This document shows, one piece after another, positions 24,803 to 50,841 of a stretch of DNA of 64,000 nt. The stretch's first letter is position 1, and every line of letters starts with the position of its first letter. A program made the translations under genes and the position numbers. The notes under the pieces were generated by a model. That model did not search any database. It had not been told where the DNA came from and was given only the letters and a program-made list of their open reading frames with translations. This DNA comes from a virus. Lineage: Duplodnaviria; Caudoviricetes. The stretch lies in the IMG/VR virus record IMGVR_UViG_3300002055_000003, positions 1-64,000 of that record. One strand, given 5' to 3'.

Positions 24803-24811
24803 TGATATAAT
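24803..24811 (+). promoter_or_regulatory. Extended -10 promoter, 8 nt before the gp47 ATG
   Basis: TG-A-TATAAT; no SD before ATG 24820. Confidence 0.6.
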
Positions 24812-24819
24812 ACTCACAT

Positions 24820-25908
24820 ATGAAAACAATTAATGTAGATTTTAAAAAGATGTTTATGTTTACAGACATTCATTATGGGGCTGCTGACGCTGATAAAGAG
24901 CGTGGTCTACGCCATAATATGGACAATGATGCATTTATTGACTTCTGTATCGAAGAAATTAAAGCAGACCCAGTAATTGATGCTATTGGGTTTCTTGGTG
25001 ATTGGAATCAACATAGAACTGCTATTAATTTACATACATTGAAATATGCCTATGAAGGTATGAAAAAACTGAATGATCTTGGGCTACCGATTTATATCGT
25101 ATTAGGCAATCATGACTTATATAAGAAGAATGATCGTTCAATTCACTCACTACACTTCTTCGAACAGTTTGAAAATGTTCATCTAATTGAAGACCCAACG
25201 GTTCTCAAGCAGAAAAATAGGAAATACCAAGACATATTGTTTTGTCCATTTTTAATGCACGGAGAAGAGGTTGACCTAGTTCAATACCTATCAGTACCAT
25301 TATGGTTTGGACACTTTGAATTCAATGGCTATGAAGTTACTGGTCATGGTATGGTTATGACAGGTGGTGTCGATCCTGATGATTTTTCACAACCCGACTT
25401 AATTGTTTCCGGTCATTTTCATAAACGCCAAGCGAAGAAAGGCAAAAACGTTGTTTATATGGGCAATCCCTTCCCAACTAGCTATAGTGATGCTGGTGAT
25501 GAAAACCGTGGCTATGCTACATATGATTTTGAATCAAAAGAAATTGAATTTACAAACTGGGAAGATGGTCCACTTTATATCAAAACAACATTGTCCGACA
25601 TACTTGACGGAAAAGTGACTATAGATAATCGCTGTTATGTAAAATGTATTGTGGATCAAAAACTCACGTATGAAGAAAGTGCTGCATTACAAAAAGAATT
25701 AATGCAAGAATTTTTACCTAGATCATTTTCTTTAGAGGAATCCATTGAAATGAGTGATGTTATTACTGAAACCGAGGCCAGTAACAAATGGCTCAATGAT
25801 GATATGGCGTCCGTTGATGAAATGGTAGTTGATATGTTGGCTGATGTTGAGAGTGAACAACTCGATAATGACGTATTGGTTGCTATATACAACGGTTTAG
25901 TAAAATAA
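24820..25908 (+). CDS. gp47: Recombination nuclease, gp47/Mre11/SbcD-like
   Basis: Metallophosphoesterase motifs TDIHYG, LGDW, LGNHD, GHFE, SGHFH. Confidence 0.93.
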   Translation: MKTINVDFKKMFMFTDIHYGAADADKERGLRHNMDNDAFIDFCIEEIKADPVIDAIGFLGDWNQHRTAINLHTLKYAYEGMKKLNDLGLPIYIVLGNHDLYKKNDRSIHSLHFFEQFENVHLIEDPTVLKQKNRKYQDILFCPFLMHGEEVDLVQYLSVPLWFGHFEFNGYEVTGHGMVMTGGVDPDDFSQPDLIVSGHFHKRQAKKGKNVVYMGNPFPTSYSDAGDENRGYATYDFESKEIEFTNWEDGPLYIKTTLSDILDGKVTIDNRCYVKCIVDQKLTYEESAALQKELMQEFLPRSFSLEESIEMSDVITETEASNKWLNDDMASVDEMVVDMLADVESEQLDNDVLVAIYNGLVK

Positions 25909-29307: not shown

Positions 29308-29316
29308 TGCTATAAT
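29308..29316 (+). promoter_or_regulatory. Extended -10 promoter, 5 nt before the purN ATG
   Basis: TG-C-TATAAT. Confidence 0.6.
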
Positions 29317-29321
29317 AGGTT

Positions 29322-29996
29322 ATGAACAATATAACGATTTTAATTTCTGGCAAAGGATCAAACATGAAGGCTATTGTAGCCGCGTGTGAAAGTGGTCGGT
29401 TAGATGGCAAGGTTACTACGGTAATAAGCAGCCAAACAGACACACAATTTCAATTAACAAAAGGATGGTGCAACATTCGAGGTATTGAATGTTATCATAA
29501 TAGACGTGATTTTTATGATTTTGAATGGATGCAACATGCTATTTTAGATGCTTTAATAGGTTTATCAAAGCCTGATTTAATTTGCCTTGCTGGATATATG
29601 AGTATATTACCAGCGCATATCGTAGAAAAATACAAGAGAAAAATGATTAATATCCATCCTTCTCTATTGCCCAAATATAAGGGCTTACGCACGCACGAGA
29701 GGGCGCTTGCGAATAAAGATATCAATGATGTCTATCATGGTGCCACAACGCATTTTGTAACTGCTGAGCTTGATTCTGGGCCTATTATCAAACAGAAACT
29801 CGTTAGTAAAGACGTAAATGATACTGTTGAAACATTAAAAGCGAGAGTTAGTAGTATTGAACACGAATTATATATTTCATCAATTGAAGAAATTTTTGAA
29901 AAAGGTATTGACAAATGCTATGAAGAATGTTTAAATCGGACATTGCCTGAATTATTCAAGCAAAATTTACAAGAATTAGAAAACTTAGACAAATAA
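29322..29996 (+). CDS. purN: Phosphoribosylglycinamide formyltransferase (auxiliary metabolic gene)
   Basis: LISGKGSN, DLICLAGYM, INIHPSLLPKYKG, GATTHFVTAELDSGPII with catalytic N/H/D intact. Confidence 0.95.
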   Translation: MNNITILISGKGSNMKAIVAACESGRLDGKVTTVISSQTDTQFQLTKGWCNIRGIECYHNRRDFYDFEWMQHAILDALIGLSKPDLICLAGYMSILPAHIVEKYKRKMINIHPSLLPKYKGLRTHERALANKDINDVYHGATTHFVTAELDSGPIIKQKLVSKDVNDTVETLKARVSSIEHELYISSIEEIFEKGIDKCYEECLNRTLPELFKQNLQELENLDK

Positions 29997-30140
29997 TAGA
30001 CATTTACTTAGACAAATAATAGACATTATAAGATTAGGCCGAGACATGAGTGCTGAAGAAGAGTAAGCGGGACACTAGCGGGAATATCTTTTTAGACAAA
30101 TAATAGACACCTTAGACAATTATTTAGACAATTACTAGAC
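29985..30140 (+). repeat. Helically phased direct-repeat array (TAGAC x9; TTAGACAAATAATAGACA x3; AGCGGGA x2)
   Basis: TAGAC at 29986, 29997, 30009, 30020, 30093, 30104, 30113, 30125, 30136; AGCGGGA at 30066 and 30077. Confidence 0.9.
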
Positions 30141-30720
30141 GATATATCACTCACCACGAGTGGTCAGATGAGGGCGATCATTTATTAATCGGTCATTATC
30201 AGTGGAAACTACATAACACTGATCAGGTGCAGTCGAGTTGCAAGGCCCGTTATCGTAACCCATAAAGGATTGGGAGCGTTAATGGATATCCGAAGTAAAT
30301 TACTGATACTGGATACGAACTAAAATTCGTTATCAAATGAGAGTTGTTTTGCTAAGTGGAAGTGTGGGTGAAACAAACACAAATGGCCTATAAATGCGTC
30401 CACCACTACGTTAAAGTTGAGCCAGATTAATGCACATATCGAATCAACTGGGGAGAAAAAAGTTTTGTCTTAATTATTTAAAGACTAAGACAAATCTAGG
30501 ATTTAGAGTTTATTGAAATGTGAGGTACGAACATTGAATAAAAACTCTAAAGTCCTGCATATTGTCAGCGAAGCGGTTAAACAATATGCCATAACTATAA
30601 ATGTTAGGCTATTTTAGATTTAAGGGGAATTGCGTCTGGGTTATTTGTAATAGCCACTTCGTGGAGTTGTGATGCATTTTTCTCAGGGAAACCCTTCGAA
30701 CAAATACACCAAACTGGAGT
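30141..30720. other. Non-coding, hairpin-dense region: large structured ncRNA or origin-associated DNA structure
   Basis: No ORF >=60 aa; at least ten inverted repeats, including a ~23-bp interrupted stem at ~30498-30556. Confidence 0.6.
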
Positions 30721-30738
30721 TTTTTGATTTAGGGGTTG

Positions 30739-30747
30739 TGGTAGAAT
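30739..30747 (+). promoter_or_regulatory. Extended -10 promoter, 6 nt before the pth2 ATG
   Basis: TG-G-TAGAAT; no SD after it. Confidence 0.5.
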
Positions 30748-30753
30748 ACATTT

Positions 30754-31164
30754 ATGGATAAATTAAAAATAAAACAAGCTATCGTAGTTCGTAATGACTT
30801 AAGATCAAAACTTCGTCATGGAAAACTTGCATCACAAGTTTCACATGCATCAATGGCAGCATTTTTAGATGGGATGAAAATTGAACCGAAACATTCTTCG
30901 TGTTTTCATTTACTCACATTAGAAATGGAACATGCTAGAACTGAATGGATTTCTAACTCATTTACTAAAATAATATTAAGGTGTGATGATGAAGATTCAA
31001 TCTTGAGATTGAATGATGAATGTATTAAAGGTCGATATCCACATGCATTAATCACAGATGCAGGAAGAACAGTATTTCAAGAACCAACAATTACATGTCT
31101 GGGTATTGGTCCACTTCCAGAAGAAATTTTATATCCATTAACAGGCCATTTAAAGTTATATTAA
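30754..31164 (+). CDS. pth2: Peptidyl-tRNA hydrolase, Pth2 family
   Basis: KQAIVVRNDL...GKLASQVSHA, TKIILR, ITDAGRT, TCLGIGP motifs. Confidence 0.92.
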   Translation: MDKLKIKQAIVVRNDLRSKLRHGKLASQVSHASMAAFLDGMKIEPKHSSCFHLLTLEMEHARTEWISNSFTKIILRCDDEDSILRLNDECIKGRYPHALITDAGRTVFQEPTITCLGIGPLPEEILYPLTGHLKLY

Positions 31165-31185: not shown

Positions 31186-31194
31186 TGATATAAT
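31186..31194 (+). promoter_or_regulatory. Extended -10 promoter, 6 nt before the helicase ATG
   Basis: TG-A-TATAAT preceded by (TTTCG)x3; no SD. Confidence 0.65.
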
Positions 31195-31200
31195 TCCTCA

Positions 31201-33849
31201 ATGGAACTTAATCAAGAAATAGCAAAATACTGGGTAGGTGGTGATGATAAACCGCCTAGAAAGGCTCAAATAGAAGCACTGAATTGGCTTGTCGAAAATA
31301 AACACAAGAAATATTTGTTCTTAGAAGCTCCTGTGGGATGCCATCAAAAGAATACAGATATACTAATGTACGATGGGACTTTTAAAAAAGTTCAGAACAT
31401 TGTTATTGGTGATCAATTAATGGGTCCAGACAGTGAACCGAGGAATGTATTGAGACTAGTATCAGGTGATGATGTTATGTATCGAGTCACACCCACTAAA
31501 GGTGATTCTTTTGTTGTCAATCAACATCATGTATTGTCTTTAAAAACAACACCAACTGGTAAAGGCGGGTTTCAACATAATAATGATGTGGTGAATATTT
31601 CAGTTAAAGACTTTCTTCAAAAATCAGATTATTTTAAAAATAATATTAAGTTATATAGAACTAATGCTCTCTCATTCCGAGAAACATGCCAATCATCTAC
31701 AATCGATCCTTATTTTCTTGGTATATTACTTGGGGATGGCACTTTACATAATGGTGTTGGTGTTACAACTATAGATGAAGAAATTAAAGAAGTTGTATAT
31801 GATGAAGCTCTCAAATATAATCTTCAAGTGAGGATTAATGAAAAAACTGATACAGACGCAGTTACATTATACCTTACATCGGGTTATCTTGGAGGAAGAT
31901 CGGATAAAAATCAACTGATTAACGAACTTCAAGAATTAGATTTATATGGAACAAAATGTCATGATAAGTTTATACCTCATGTATACAAGACTGCTTCAAT
32001 AAAATCTCGAAGAAGTCTATTGGGTGGTTTAATAGATTCAGATGGTCATCTCAGTACCGGTTGCATTGAAATAGTAAGTAAATCTGAGCGCCTTCTAGAT
32101 GATATAATCTTCATTTGTCGAAGTCTAGGGTTAGCAGCATATAAATCTATTAAAATAGTTAATGATGTCAATTATTTTCGAGTTTCTATTTCTGGTGATA
32201 TGGAAAATATTCCATCAGTTTTAATCAGAAAAACACAGACTAAAAGAAGTCAGAAAAAACGAGTAACTGTCACTGGATTTTCATTAACTGAATTGACAAT
32301 AGATCGCTATTATGGATTTACCGTAGATTCTGACAATCTTTATGTGATGGGAGATTTTACAGTAACCCATAATTGTGGTAAATCAATGGTTGGTATGACA
32401 TTTTCTCGTTATATGAAAAATCATGCTTATGCACTAACTCCACAAGTTATCTTACAACATCAATATGAAAATGATTTCGAATCAGATAAGACGCTGAACA
32501 TGGCATCTTTATATGGCAAAGCTAATTATACTTGTACAGAAAAGCATGGGTTAAGTTGTGCAGTTGGTTCTGTTGTTAAACCACGTTGTGCCAATTGTCC
32601 TTATGTAAATGCTCGTGATGCTGCTGTTTCTGCCAACAATACTGTTATGAATTATAAAATGGCATTATCCGCATGGAAATACACTAAAATTTTCAAAAAG
32701 GATGATGAACCAGTTGTTCGCAAATTATCTATTTGCGATGAAGGACATACATTAGAAAATCACTTAGTTGGTTTCGATTCAATACAAATCACTGATAAGT
32801 GGTGTACGGATCATCTATTACAAATGCCAAATAAAAATACACGAGATATTAAGGTAATGGTAGATTTTCTTCGGTCTGATTATTATTCTTCATTAGTTGA
32901 AGCATATGATCACTTACTTACTGAAGTTGAATTAATGAAAGGTACAGAAGATGTTCGAATGGTTGCAAAGAAAACAAAAGAATTGAAATTCATAGAGAGT
33001 CAAATCAATACATGCACTTCAATCTTAAAGGCTTCTATGGATGATATTGACCGGGATTATGTTATGGTTGAAACGCAATTTGGTGTTGAATTGAAGCGAC
33101 TGTATGGACATTATTCTTTTAAGAACATCATGGAACCCACTGCAAGACAATTTTTGTTTATGTCATCTACATTTCTTGGCAAAAAAGAATGTTGTGATGA
33201 ATTAGGACTGAATCCTGATGATGTTGCGTATATTTCAATTGATTCTGAGTTCGACCCTGATAATCGCCCAGTTGTGTTTATGCCTCGAATGAAAATGAAT
33301 TATAAGTGGAAAGATGATTTTAATAAAAAGAATCGAAAAAAGATGATAGATACTATTGTCGAAATTGCAAAAATGCATGAAGGAGAAAATGGCATTATCC
33401 ACACTGGAAACTTTGCAATTGCTGAATGGTTGGTTGAAAACCTATCTACTAAAACACATGAGTTGGTACATCACAATCCGGGCACTGAAATGAATCGCAA
33501 TGAAGCTATTACATACTTCCTAGACGAATCAACAACACCTGCAATTTTGATTTCGCCTTCCAGTACCGAAGGGCTTGATCTAAAATATGATTTAGGTGGG
33601 TTTGCGATTTTTGCCAAAATTCCATTTGGAAATATGGGTGATGCATGGATTAAGAAGCGAATGACTATATCAAATGAATGGTATCAGCGACGTGCCATCA
33701 TTGATATTATTCAAGGTTGTGGTCGAATTGTTCGTACTCCTGATGATGAAGGAACAACCTACATACTGGATGAATCGTTTGGTTACTTATACAATCAGAA
33801 TAAGAAAATCATTCCGCAATGGTGGAAAGATGCATATCACGAAGTGTAA
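31201..33849 (+). CDS. DinG/YoaA/XPD-family SF2 helicase with probable FeS cysteines, intein-containing
   Basis: Q motif PRKAQ; Walker A EAPVG|CGKS; LYGKANYTC...SC...C..CPY cluster; DEGH; EGLDL; IIQGCGRIVR. Confidence 0.88.
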   Translation: MELNQEIAKYWVGGDDKPPRKAQIEALNWLVENKHKKYLFLEAPVGCHQKNTDILMYDGTFKKVQNIVIGDQLMGPDSEPRNVLRLVSGDDVMYRVTPTKGDSFVVNQHHVLSLKTTPTGKGGFQHNNDVVNISVKDFLQKSDYFKNNIKLYRTNALSFRETCQSSTIDPYFLGILLGDGTLHNGVGVTTIDEEIKEVVYDEALKYNLQVRINEKTDTDAVTLYLTSGYLGGRSDKNQLINELQELDLYGTKCHDKFIPHVYKTASIKSRRSLLGGLIDSDGHLSTGCIEIVSKSERLLDDIIFICRSLGLAAYKSIKIVNDVNYFRVSISGDMENIPSVLIRKTQTKRSQKKRVTVTGFSLTELTIDRYYGFTVDSDNLYVMGDFTVTHNCGKSMVGMTFSRYMKNHAYALTPQVILQHQYENDFESDKTLNMASLYGKANYTCTEKHGLSCAVGSVVKPRCANCPYVNARDAAVSANNTVMNYKMALSAWKYTKIFKKDDEPVVRKLSICDEGHTLENHLVGFDSIQITDKWCTDHLLQMPNKNTRDIKVMVDFLRSDYYSSLVEAYDHLLTEVELMKGTEDVRMVAKKTKELKFIESQINTCTSILKASMDDIDRDYVMVETQFGVELKRLYGHYSFKNIMEPTARQFLFMSSTFLGKKECCDELGLNPDDVAYISIDSEFDPDNRPVVFMPRMKMNYKWKDDFNKKNRKKMIDTIVEIAKMHEGENGIIHTGNFAIAEWLVENLSTKTHELVHHNPGTEMNRNEAITYFLDESTTPAILISPSSTEGLDLKYDLGGFAIFAKIPFGNMGDAWIKKRMTISNEWYQRRAIIDIIQGCGRIVRTPDDEGTTYILDESFGYLYNQNKKIIPQWWKDAYHEV
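31339..32373 (+). mobile_element. Class 1 intein with LAGLIDADG endonuclease, 345 aa
   Basis: CHQKNTDILMYDG start, VTHN|C end; YFLGILLGDG and LGGLIDSDG. Confidence 0.93.
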
Positions 33850-41221: not shown

Positions 41222-41242
41222 TAGGGTTTCCACTACTAAATT
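41222..41242 (+). promoter_or_regulatory. Conserved 21-bp motif, copy 1 (TAGGGTTTCCACTACTAAATT)
   Basis: 18/21 identical to the copy at 50821; upstream of the scaffold/capsid late promoter at 41274. Confidence 0.55.
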
Positions 41243-50820: not shown

Positions 50821-50841
50821 TAGGGTTTCCGTTATTAAATT
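50821..50841 (+). promoter_or_regulatory. Conserved 21-bp motif, copy 2 (TAGGGTTTCCGTTATTAAATT)
   Basis: Upstream of the sheath late promoter at 50865. Confidence 0.55.

What the first reader, a model, noticed from the sequence alone, without database searches (positions are those of the whole stretch)
30141..30720. ~600-nt ornate structured element: candidate new large phage ncRNA or ssDNA origin structure
This gene-free region has many stems: CACTC/GAGTG; ATCAGTG/CACTGAT; TGCAG/TTGCA; TATCC/GGATA; ACGAA/TTCGT; GTGGA/TCCAC; AGTTGA/TCAACT; TTTGTCTTA/TAAGACAAA; the long AGGATTTAGAGTTTATT..AATGT/ACATT..AATAAAAACTCTAAAGTCCT; GCATATTGT/ACAATATGC; GGCTATT/AATAGCC; CCAC/GTGG; AGGG/CCCT. A long-range helix GAGAAAAA (30453-60)/TTTTTCTC (30677-84) closes a multi-branch domain, which favours an RNA comparable in size to large phage-associated ornate RNAs such as GOLLD/ROOL. 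Conversely, GCGAAGC (~30568) and C-GAA-G on the minus strand are classic ultra-stable DNA triloop hairpins. Its position beside pth2 suggests a possible translation-related role. I could not match tRNA, tmRNA, RNase P or intron consensus. This is my best candidate for an undescribed system in the window.
Basis: partly seen in the sequence, partly recalled or inferred. Interest (0 to 1): 0.75.

Follow-up and report, generated by a model that had tools for sequence, protein, structure and literature searches.

The report
Conserved structured RNA candidate in jumbo phage
The gene-free stretch before pth2 in this jumbo-phage fragment holds a roughly 320-base non-coding segment that is better conserved than its neighbouring genes and changes in a way that mostly keeps its small hairpins, so it is probably an undescribed phage RNA, but only one related sequence could be found.

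Summary
The stems are real and the region is non-coding, with no Rfam, tRNA or tmRNA match. The finding splits into two parts.

**30141-30462.** This part is conserved in the only relative found, metagenome contigs L063/L062.
- Nucleotide identity is 71%, against 61% for purN, 64% for pth2 and 48% for the 3' part.
- It shows no codon periodicity and has 1-2-nt indels.
- Its GC content is raised.
- Short hairpins show 7 compensatory and 8 G·U-mediated changes in 55 curated pairs.
- This signal appears on the + strand only.

**30463-30720.** This part holds the showy long hairpins, the GCGAAGC triloop and the 3' arm of the proposed closing helix. It is not conserved in sequence. The relative has a different long hairpin at the same place.

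**Best reading (about 0.5).** A + strand structured RNA of about 320 nt lies downstream of a conserved TAGACA repeat array and is followed by fast-evolving hairpins. It is probably not a pth2 leader.

**Weak points.**
- There are only two independent sequences.
- The same shuffle test on coding controls reaches z -2.3, against -2.8 here.
- The relative's copy folds no better than shuffled sequence.
- There are no expression data.

A DNA-level role, such as an origin, remains open. The scan noted this same stretch once before, in an overlapping window of the same genome.

The parts
29985..30140 (.). Array of about nine TAGACA(A) direct repeats at 9-12 bp spacing, immediately upstream of the conserved segment. 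This is context and the subject of a separate note.
   Evidence: Eight exact TAGACA of 23 in the whole window fall here (repeats D1/D2). The relative L063 has two 22-nt repeats with the same core, (T/C)AGACAAGTAACCAG, at the same place.
30141..30462 (+). Conserved non-coding core, the candidate structured RNA domain. Helix coordinates: H1 30146-52/30158-64; H2 30172-78/30188-94; H3 30198-204/30217-23; H4 30226-32/30238-47; H5 30259-62/30271-74; H6 30312-19/30326-34; H7 30364-69/30386-91; H8 30396-99/30408-11; H9 30416-20/30444-48 with an inner stem 30425-27/30438-40.
   Evidence: 71% identical to L063 1105-1428, against 61-64% for the flanking genes. No codon periodicity and stops in every frame. 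GC is 40.7%. Of 55 curated pairs, 36 are invariant, 8 change on one side through G·U, 7 are compensatory and 4 are broken. Compensatory excess appears on the + strand only.
30300..30315 (+). Longest invariant block, TTACTGATACTGGATA. Other invariant blocks are CATAAAGGATTGG (the H5 loop) and TAAGTGGAAG-GTGGG.
   Evidence: Alignments A3 and A8. Exact-word scans of IMG/VR with these blocks gave chance hits only.
30463..30720 (+). Fast-evolving hairpin region: V1 30461-30497, long hairpin V2 30499-30556, V3 30557-30589 (with GCGAAGC in its loop), V4 30607-30655, and AGGGAAACCCT at 30686-30696.
   Evidence: Folds better than shuffles, z -2.43. Only 48% identical to L063, which is chance level. L063 has a different 67-nt hairpin followed by a short hairpin at the same relative position, and its 3' part has z -1.99.
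30739..30747 (+). TGGTAGAAT, an extended -10-like element 7 nt before the pth2 ATG.
   Evidence: Regex scan. The same arrangement precedes three other early genes in the window, and precedes purN and the helicase gene in L063.
29322..29996 (+). purN-like formyltransferase gene, the left flank. The synteny is conserved in L063.
   Evidence: Pfam Formyl_trans_N, E 4.5e-40. 64% amino-acid identity to the L063 ORF at 426-1031.
30754..31164 (+). pth2 (peptidyl-tRNA hydrolase PTH2) gene, the right flank.
   Evidence: Pfam PTH2, E 1.5e-29. 59-60% amino-acid identity to the L063 ORF at 1625-2038.

Best explanation
The finding is two things joined end to end.

**Conserved core (30141-30462).** This is a structured, non-coding RNA domain of about 320 nt read on the + strand, the same direction as purN and pth2. 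It is a chain of about nine short hairpins. Their stems change by compensatory or G·U-mediated substitutions, while several loops and linkers stay invariant.

**Variable tail (30463-30720).** This is a run of hairpins kept as hairpins but free to change sequence. It most likely serves as 3'-end or spacer structure for the same transcript.

**Inferred steps, not shown.**
- The RNA is made rightward, either from a sigma-70-like promoter at the end of purN or by read-through of the purN message.
- It passes through the conserved TAGACA repeat array, which would then be a protein-binding (operator) site controlling it.
- The conserved core acts in trans, for example as a protein-binding scaffold, rather than as a leader for pth2.
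- Its cellular target is unknown.
For: **Purifying selection on the core**
- The only homologous locus (L063/L062) keeps purN, gap and pth2 in the same order.
- The core is 71% identical, against 61% (purN DNA), 64% (pth2 DNA) and 48% (3' part).

**Non-coding**
- Mismatches by codon phase are 34/35/28 (p=0.64). The coding controls give p=1.6e-4 and 4e-11.
- Indels are 1-2 nt, and there are stops in all frames of both sequences.

**Composition**
- GC is 40.7% in the core, against 36% for the window and 32-34% for the flanks.

**Structure**
- Curated helices on alignment A8: of 19 pairs that vary, 15 stay paired in both sequences (7 double changes, 8 single changes). Sliding the partners by 1-3 columns gives 0-1 double changes.
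- A fold predicted from the window alone and tested on L063 has 7-9 compensatory pairs, against about 3 expected. P is 0.001-0.02.

**Strand**
- There is no compensatory excess on the - strand.
- The alifold column-shuffle z is -2.83 on + (2 of 500 shuffles) and -1.05 on -.
- All single-sided changes pass through G·U.

**Independence from pth2**
- pth2 has TGGTAGAAT 7 nt before its ATG, like three other early genes.

**Assembly**
- The sequence is reproduced without a difference in two Logan assemblies of the same sample.
Against: - **Few sequences.** There are only two independent sequences, so no pair can reach statistical covariation in the R-scape sense.
- **Controls come close.** The column-shuffle test gives z down to -2.30 on a purN coding control. 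One of 16 coding control runs of the compensatory test reached P<0.01.
- **Reverse test is weaker.** The fold predicted from L063 and tested on the window gives P of 0.04-0.47.
- **Relative's copy is not unusually stable.** The L063 copy of the core folds no better than shuffles, z +0.13.
- **Unstable consensus.** The predicted consensus structure changes with the alignment used.
- **No transcript ends.** No convincing promoter or intrinsic terminator was found at the ends.
- **Alternative reading.** The adjoining direct-repeat array is the kind of feature expected at a DNA-level site.
Confidence: 0.5

Rival explanations
1. DNA-level element. The TAGACA iteron-like array and the conserved 320 bp together form a replication origin or another multi-protein binding site such as a partition, packaging or enhancer site. 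The hairpins would be incidental.
For: - Nine phased direct repeats lie directly beside the segment and are unique in the window.
- The repeats are conserved as a feature in L063.
- Single-sequence folding z-scores are similar on both strands.
- The L063 core is not unusually stable as RNA.
- No promoter or terminator was found.
Against: - The conserved part is GC-richer than its surroundings rather than an AT-rich unwinding element.
- The cumulative GC skew turns at about 24 kb, where gene orientation switches, not here.
- Compensatory and G·U-mediated changes are enriched on the + strand only. DNA protein-binding sites do not predict this.
Confidence: 0.2
2. Cis-acting mRNA element. The segment is either a long structured 3' UTR of purN (stability or processing) or a regulatory leader controlling read-through into pth2 and the helicase gene.
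For: - It has the same orientation as both flanking genes, with no terminator detected between them.
- The purN-gap-pth2 order is conserved.
- A TAAAT-containing block aligns between the two loci in the 3' part: CTATAAATG at 30595 and CTCTAAATATG in L063.
Against: - The conserved part is separated from the pth2 start by 290 nt (window) or 196 nt (L063) of unconserved sequence.
- pth2 has its own extended -10-like element abutting the ATG.
- No T-box, riboswitch or leader family matches.
- Cultured relatives with pth2 (Xoo-sp13, RAS14) have no such gap.
Confidence: 0.15
3. No function. The hairpins are chance features of a spacer or the decaying remnant of a gene or mobile element. The similarity to L063 would reflect a more recent exchange of this segment.
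For: - There is only one relative.
- The genome carries mobile elements nearby, namely inteins in the Rad50-like and helicase genes.
- Coding controls come near the structure scores.
Against: - The adjoining 3' part has drifted to chance-level identity, while the core keeps 71%, above both flanking genes.
- Indels fall almost entirely in loops and linkers.
- There is no trace of a reading frame.
Confidence: 0.1
4. One reading: one ornate RNA of about 600 nt of GOLLD/ROOL size, closed by the 30453-60/30677-84 helix.
For: The helix is in the minimum-energy fold of the window sequence. The whole region folds better than shuffles.
Against: - There is no Rfam hit to GOLLD, ROOL or any large RNA.
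- The 3' arm and the enclosed hairpin sequences are not conserved in L063.
Confidence: 0.03

Closest known systems
Large phage-associated ornate RNAs (GOLLD, ROOL)
   Same: A long non-coding, hairpin-rich stretch in a phage genome with no known function.
   Different: No covariance-model match. The conserved part is about 320 nt of short hairpins, not a 600-800 nt multi-domain fold. It was seen in one small phage lineage only.
Iteron-type origins and RNA-primed origins (T4 oriE region, ColE1 RNA II). Recalled from general knowledge, not tested here.
   Same: Direct repeats lie next to a transcribed or structured region. A structured primer or regulatory RNA at an origin would explain both the repeats and the RNA-like conservation.
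   Different: There is no AT-rich unwinding element beside the repeats, no skew switch, no recognisable initiator gene next to it, and no sequence similarity to any of these.
Candidate structured RNAs catalogued from IMG/VR (PMC10690425)
   Same: The same kind of object: a conserved intergenic phage motif with covariation and unknown function.
   Different: That catalogue holds motifs of 29-151 nt that match at least three IMG/VR regions. This element is longer, and my eight IMG/VR scans found no other copy. I could not check the catalogue's models directly.
tmRNA
   Same: The invariant block CTGATACTGGATACGA resembles, from memory, the 5' end of E. coli tmRNA. It also sits next to a gene of translation quality control.
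   Different: ARAGORN and all Rfam tmRNA models are negative. The part that is most conserved in tmRNA (UUCGAC) is a covarying stem here and differs in L063. There is no acceptor-stem partner, no CCA end and no tag frame.

Membership tests
Any Rfam 15 family (including GOLLD, ROOL, HEARO, OLE, group I/II introns, RNase P, 6S, T-box, tmRNA) | Covariance-model score at or above the family's gathering threshold | tested here: not met
   There were 0 matches in the whole window at gathering score. The best permissive hit in 29900-30850 is a snoRNA model at 23.6 bits against 65 needed, E 1.5.
tRNA / tmRNA | Cloverleaf, or tRNA-like domain with a tag reading frame | tested here: not met
   ARAGORN found 0 genes in 64 kb.
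Structured non-coding RNA (generic) | Non-coding sequence conserved above neutral level | tested here: met
   71% identity, against 48% in the adjoining spacer and 61-64% in the flanking genes. No codon periodicity.
Structured non-coding RNA (generic) | Statistically supported covariation of base pairs | tested here: inconclusive
   Seven compensatory and 8 G·U-mediated changes in 55 pairs. Compensatory pairs exceed the null on the + strand only, P 0.001-0.04. There are only two sequences, and coding controls reach z -2.3 and one P<0.01.
Structured non-coding RNA (generic) | A discrete transcript | not testable with these tools
   No RNA run holds the stretch. No clear promoter or terminator was found.
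Iteron-type replication origin | Cluster of direct repeats | tested here: met
   TAGACA array at 29985-30140. It lies just outside the finding's coordinates.
Iteron-type replication origin | Adjacent AT-rich unwinding region and a strand-skew switch | tested here: not met
   The adjoining 320 nt have the highest GC of the neighbourhood. The cumulative GC skew minimum is at about 24 kb.
ssDNA hairpin origin with GCGAAGC-type triloop | Conserved ultra-stable DNA mini-hairpin | tested here: not met
   GCGAAGC at 30568-30574 lies in the loop of hairpin V3. V3 is replaced by an unrelated GAGC-TTTA-GCTC hairpin in L063.

The most novel reading that the evidence does not exclude
The 320-nt core is the RNA subunit of a new phage ribonucleoprotein or ribozyme, confined to a marine branch of the XacN1/Rak2-like jumbo phages and switched by a protein bound to the TAGACA array. 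One version would be an origin-associated primer or regulator RNA. Another would be an RNA acting on the translation apparatus, given the neighbouring pth2.
Probability: 0.12. Interest if true: 0.75.

Novelty: new member of a known kind. Interest (0 to 1): 0.45.

Why it matters
Jumbo phages of this group carry many translation and DNA-metabolism genes, but hardly any of their non-coding RNAs are known. A 320-nt RNA conserved more strongly than its neighbouring genes would be a new handle on how such phages control early functions or replication.

At present it is a well-delimited candidate, not a demonstrated RNA. Its value lies in giving exact coordinates, conserved blocks and testable helices. 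Several further lineages (PTH2 homologues at 60-69% identity in ENA/Logan/JGI assemblies) could settle the covariation question quickly.

Tried and rejected
**Homologue searches that found nothing beyond L063/L062**
- blastn of the gap against 50,697 GenBank phages.
- IMG/VR scans with PTH2, a PTH2 alignment and a PurN alignment.
- Five IMG/VR word or pattern scans with conserved blocks gave chance hits only, checked by nhmmer.
- One GTDB-genome pattern scan gave chance hits only.
- A covariance model of the 156-nt core (R1) was run over about 1 Mb of PTH2-bearing loci and the window.
- BLAST in three whole IMG/VR relatives.

The contigs of the closest PTH2 homologues (P0002-P0010, P0125, P0127) could therefore not be fetched.
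- The listing of cluster members gave no accession numbers.
- L064's 302-kb contig is not held.

**Sequencing runs**
- No RNA holder was listed for the stretch.
- Laying the three DNA runs showed identical contigs only and no variants.

**Readings considered and dropped**
- tmRNA, permuted tmRNA or a tRNA-like end (ACACCA at 30706-11). None of this is conserved in L063, and the programs are negative.
- A small conserved ORF: none exists.
- A CsrA-type GGA sponge: by eye there are about 10 GGA, near chance expectation. This was not formally tested.
- Antisense target of the invariant 16-mer in the window: only 3-mismatch matches, weakly above chance.
- A minus-strand late transcript driven by the AGGGTTTCC motif at 30687-95. 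That motif is not in L063.
- Distant PTH2 loci and the cultured relatives Xoo-sp13 and RAS14 have no comparable gap next to pth2.

Full report
**What the window is.** The window is the first 64 kb of a 74.7-kb IMG/VR virus record judged 22% complete. It was recovered from an algae metagenome. Its major capsid protein is 61-63% identical to those of the jumbo myoviruses Stenotrophomonas CM1/RAS14 and Xanthomonas XacN1/Xoo-sp13. The finding lies in a rightward block of early-type genes:
- a Rad50-like gene with a LAGLIDADG intein
- a RuvC-like gene
- a purN-like formyltransferase (29322-29996)
- the 757-nt gap
- pth2 (30754-31164)
- an XPD-type helicase with an intein

**Observation.** The gap has stops in all six frames. 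It has no tRNA or tmRNA. No Rfam family matches at gathering score in the whole window, and the best permissive hit is E 1.5. The 580 nt fold better than dinucleotide shuffles on both strands, z -2.95 and -3.31.

**Relatives.** IMG/VR, GenBank phages and GTDB genomes gave no copy. A scan of JGI metagenome contigs with a PTH2 alignment gave one related lineage:
- L063 (2,424 nt) carries purN, a 593-nt gap and pth2 in the same order.
- L062 is a near-identical fragment of the same lineage (98.8% over 330 nt).

blastn and nhmmer align window 30094-30513 with L063 1057-1476 at 68% identity over 433 nt, E 1e-44.

Measured piece by piece:

| Segment | Identity |
|---|---|
| purN DNA | 61% (protein 64%) |
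| pth2 DNA | 64% (protein 59-60%) |
| Non-coding 30141-30462 | 71% |
| Rest of the gap, 30463-30753 | 48% (chance level for a global alignment) |

A non-coding piece that is better conserved than both flanking genes, next to a spacer that has drifted to saturation, is under purifying selection.

It is not a hidden gene:
- Mismatches fall evenly on the three phases (34/35/28, p=0.64). purN and pth2 show the expected third-position excess (p=4e-11 and 1.6e-4).
- Indels are 1-2 nt.
- Both sequences have stops in every frame.
- Its GC (40.7%) exceeds the window mean (36%) and the flanks, as structured RNA genes do in AT-rich genomes.

**Is the constraint RNA structure?** Eleven short helices that can be drawn in both sequences (alignment A8) hold 55 pairs:
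- 36 never vary.
- 8 change on one side, always through G·U.
- 7 change on both sides and stay paired. These are U-A to C-G twice in H3, G-C to A-U in H4, H8 and H9, C-G to G-C in H5, and A-U to U-A in H9.
- 4 are broken in one sequence.
- Sliding the 3' partners by 1-3 columns leaves 28-38% of cells paired and 0-1 double changes.

Those helices were chosen with both sequences in view, so I also ran less biased tests.
- **Window fold tested on L063.** The null re-deals L063's substitutions among columns with the same window base. Compensatory pairs number 7-9 against about 3 expected (P 0.001-0.02) on the + strand. On the - strand they are 3-6 against about 3 (P>0.1).
- **Reverse test.** The L063 fold tested on the window is weaker (P 0.04-0.47).
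- **RNAalifold against column shuffles.** z is -2.83 on + (2 of 500 shuffles) and -1.05 on -.

The controls temper this:
- The same alifold test on purN and pth2 coding alignments gives z from +0.5 to -2.3.
- One of 16 coding runs of the compensatory test reached P<0.01.
- The L063 copy on its own folds no better than shuffles, z +0.13, while the window copy has z -2.32.
- The predicted consensus changes with the alignment used.

The structural evidence is therefore suggestive and consistently points to the + strand. It is not conclusive with two sequences.

**The 3' half.** They are the 58-nt hairpin, GCATATTGT/ACAATATGC with the GCGAAGC loop, GGCTATT/AATAGCC, and the 3' arm of the 'closing' helix.

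L063 nevertheless has a different 67-nt imperfect hairpin followed by a short hairpin at the same relative position. Both 3' parts fold better than shuffles, z -2.43 and -1.99. That fits hairpins selected as hairpins, such as 3'-end protection, termination or spacing. It does not fit a specific fold. The TTTTTCTC arm of the long-range helix has no counterpart in L063.

**Ends and transcription (inferred).**
- No canonical sigma-70 promoter or intrinsic terminator was called in the gap.
- By eye, TTGACA-17-TCTAAT in L063 and TTGACA-17-TTAAAT plus TTTACT-18-TATAAG in the window lie at the end of purN, upstream of the repeats.
- The TAGACA array (29985-30140) is conserved as a feature in L063, as two 22-nt repeats. 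It would lie between such promoters and the core.
- pth2, purN, the helicase gene and the gene at 24820 each have a TGnTAnnAT element 5-8 nt before the ATG. L063 shows the same before purN and the helicase gene. pth2 therefore need not depend on upstream transcription.
- The conserved core lies 200-290 nt from the pth2 start. This argues against a pth2 leader.

**DNA-level alternative.** The repeat array makes an origin or other protein-binding site a serious rival. Three points count against it:
- The core's GC is higher than its surroundings, so there is no AT-rich unwinding element.
- The cumulative GC skew minimum is at about 24 kb, where gene orientation switches. Skew in phages largely follows transcription, so this is weak.
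- The substitution pattern is strand-asymmetric.

**Comparison with known things.** The element is not a member of any Rfam family, tRNA or tmRNA. A resemblance of the invariant 16-mer to the tmRNA 5' end, recalled from memory, fails on every testable feature. A published IMG/VR catalogue of candidate structured RNAs holds motifs of 29-151 nt with at least three IMG/VR copies (PMC10690425). This element has no other IMG/VR copy in my scans. The cultured relatives Xoo-sp13 and RAS14 have pth2 near the head genes but no such gap.

**Verdict.**
- Most likely (about 0.5), 30141-30462 encodes a new, lineage-restricted structured RNA on the + strand, with variable hairpins after it and a conserved repeat array before it.
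- Its function and its transcript ends are unknown.
These are the upstream regions of at least six further lineages with PTH2 homologues at 60-69% identity.
- No RNA data exist for this stretch.

Noticed in passing
window 24803-24822, 29308-29324, 30739-30756, 31186-31203; L063 389-418 and 2051-2078: Four early-block genes have an extended -10-like TGnTAnnAT element only 5-8 nt before the ATG and no Shine-Dalgarno sequence. The relative L063 shows the same before purN and the helicase gene. This suggests leaderless early mRNAs in this phage lineage.
   Followed up: partly
window 29985-30140; L063 1056-1100: The TAGACA(A) direct-repeat array overlaps the purN stop codon. It is conserved as a feature in the relative, as two 22-nt repeats with the core AGACAAGTAACCAG, while the surrounding sequence is not. 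A related inverted pair, TTTGTCTTA/TAAGACAAA, forms hairpin V1 at 30464-30494.
   Followed up: partly
window 30687-30695 (-), 41223-41231 (+), 50822-50830 (+): AGGGTTTCC occurs three times against 0.19 expected. The copy in the gap is on the minus strand, about 49 nt before a CAAATA. It is not present in L063.
   Followed up: partly
window 31201-33849 versus L063 2085-2423: The helicase gene of the window carries a Hint/LAGLIDADG intein right after the motif APVG. The L063 homologue runs on without it at that site (PVGGGKS), so the intein is present in one lineage and absent in the other.
   Followed up: no
window 30388-30396 and 30595-30603: The 9-mer CTATAAATG occurs twice in the gap and resembles the phage's late-promoter box (c)TAAATA. 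The second copy aligns with CTCTAAATATG in L063, about 80-150 nt before pth2.
   Followed up: no
window 29928-29996: The window's purN has a 23-residue C-terminal extension relative to L063. The extension ends inside the first TAGACA repeat.
   Followed up: no
window upstream regions of late genes (for example 13851, 39843, 44220): Most structural genes are preceded by cTAAATA 10-50 nt before the start codon, a T4-late-promoter-like box.
   Followed up: no
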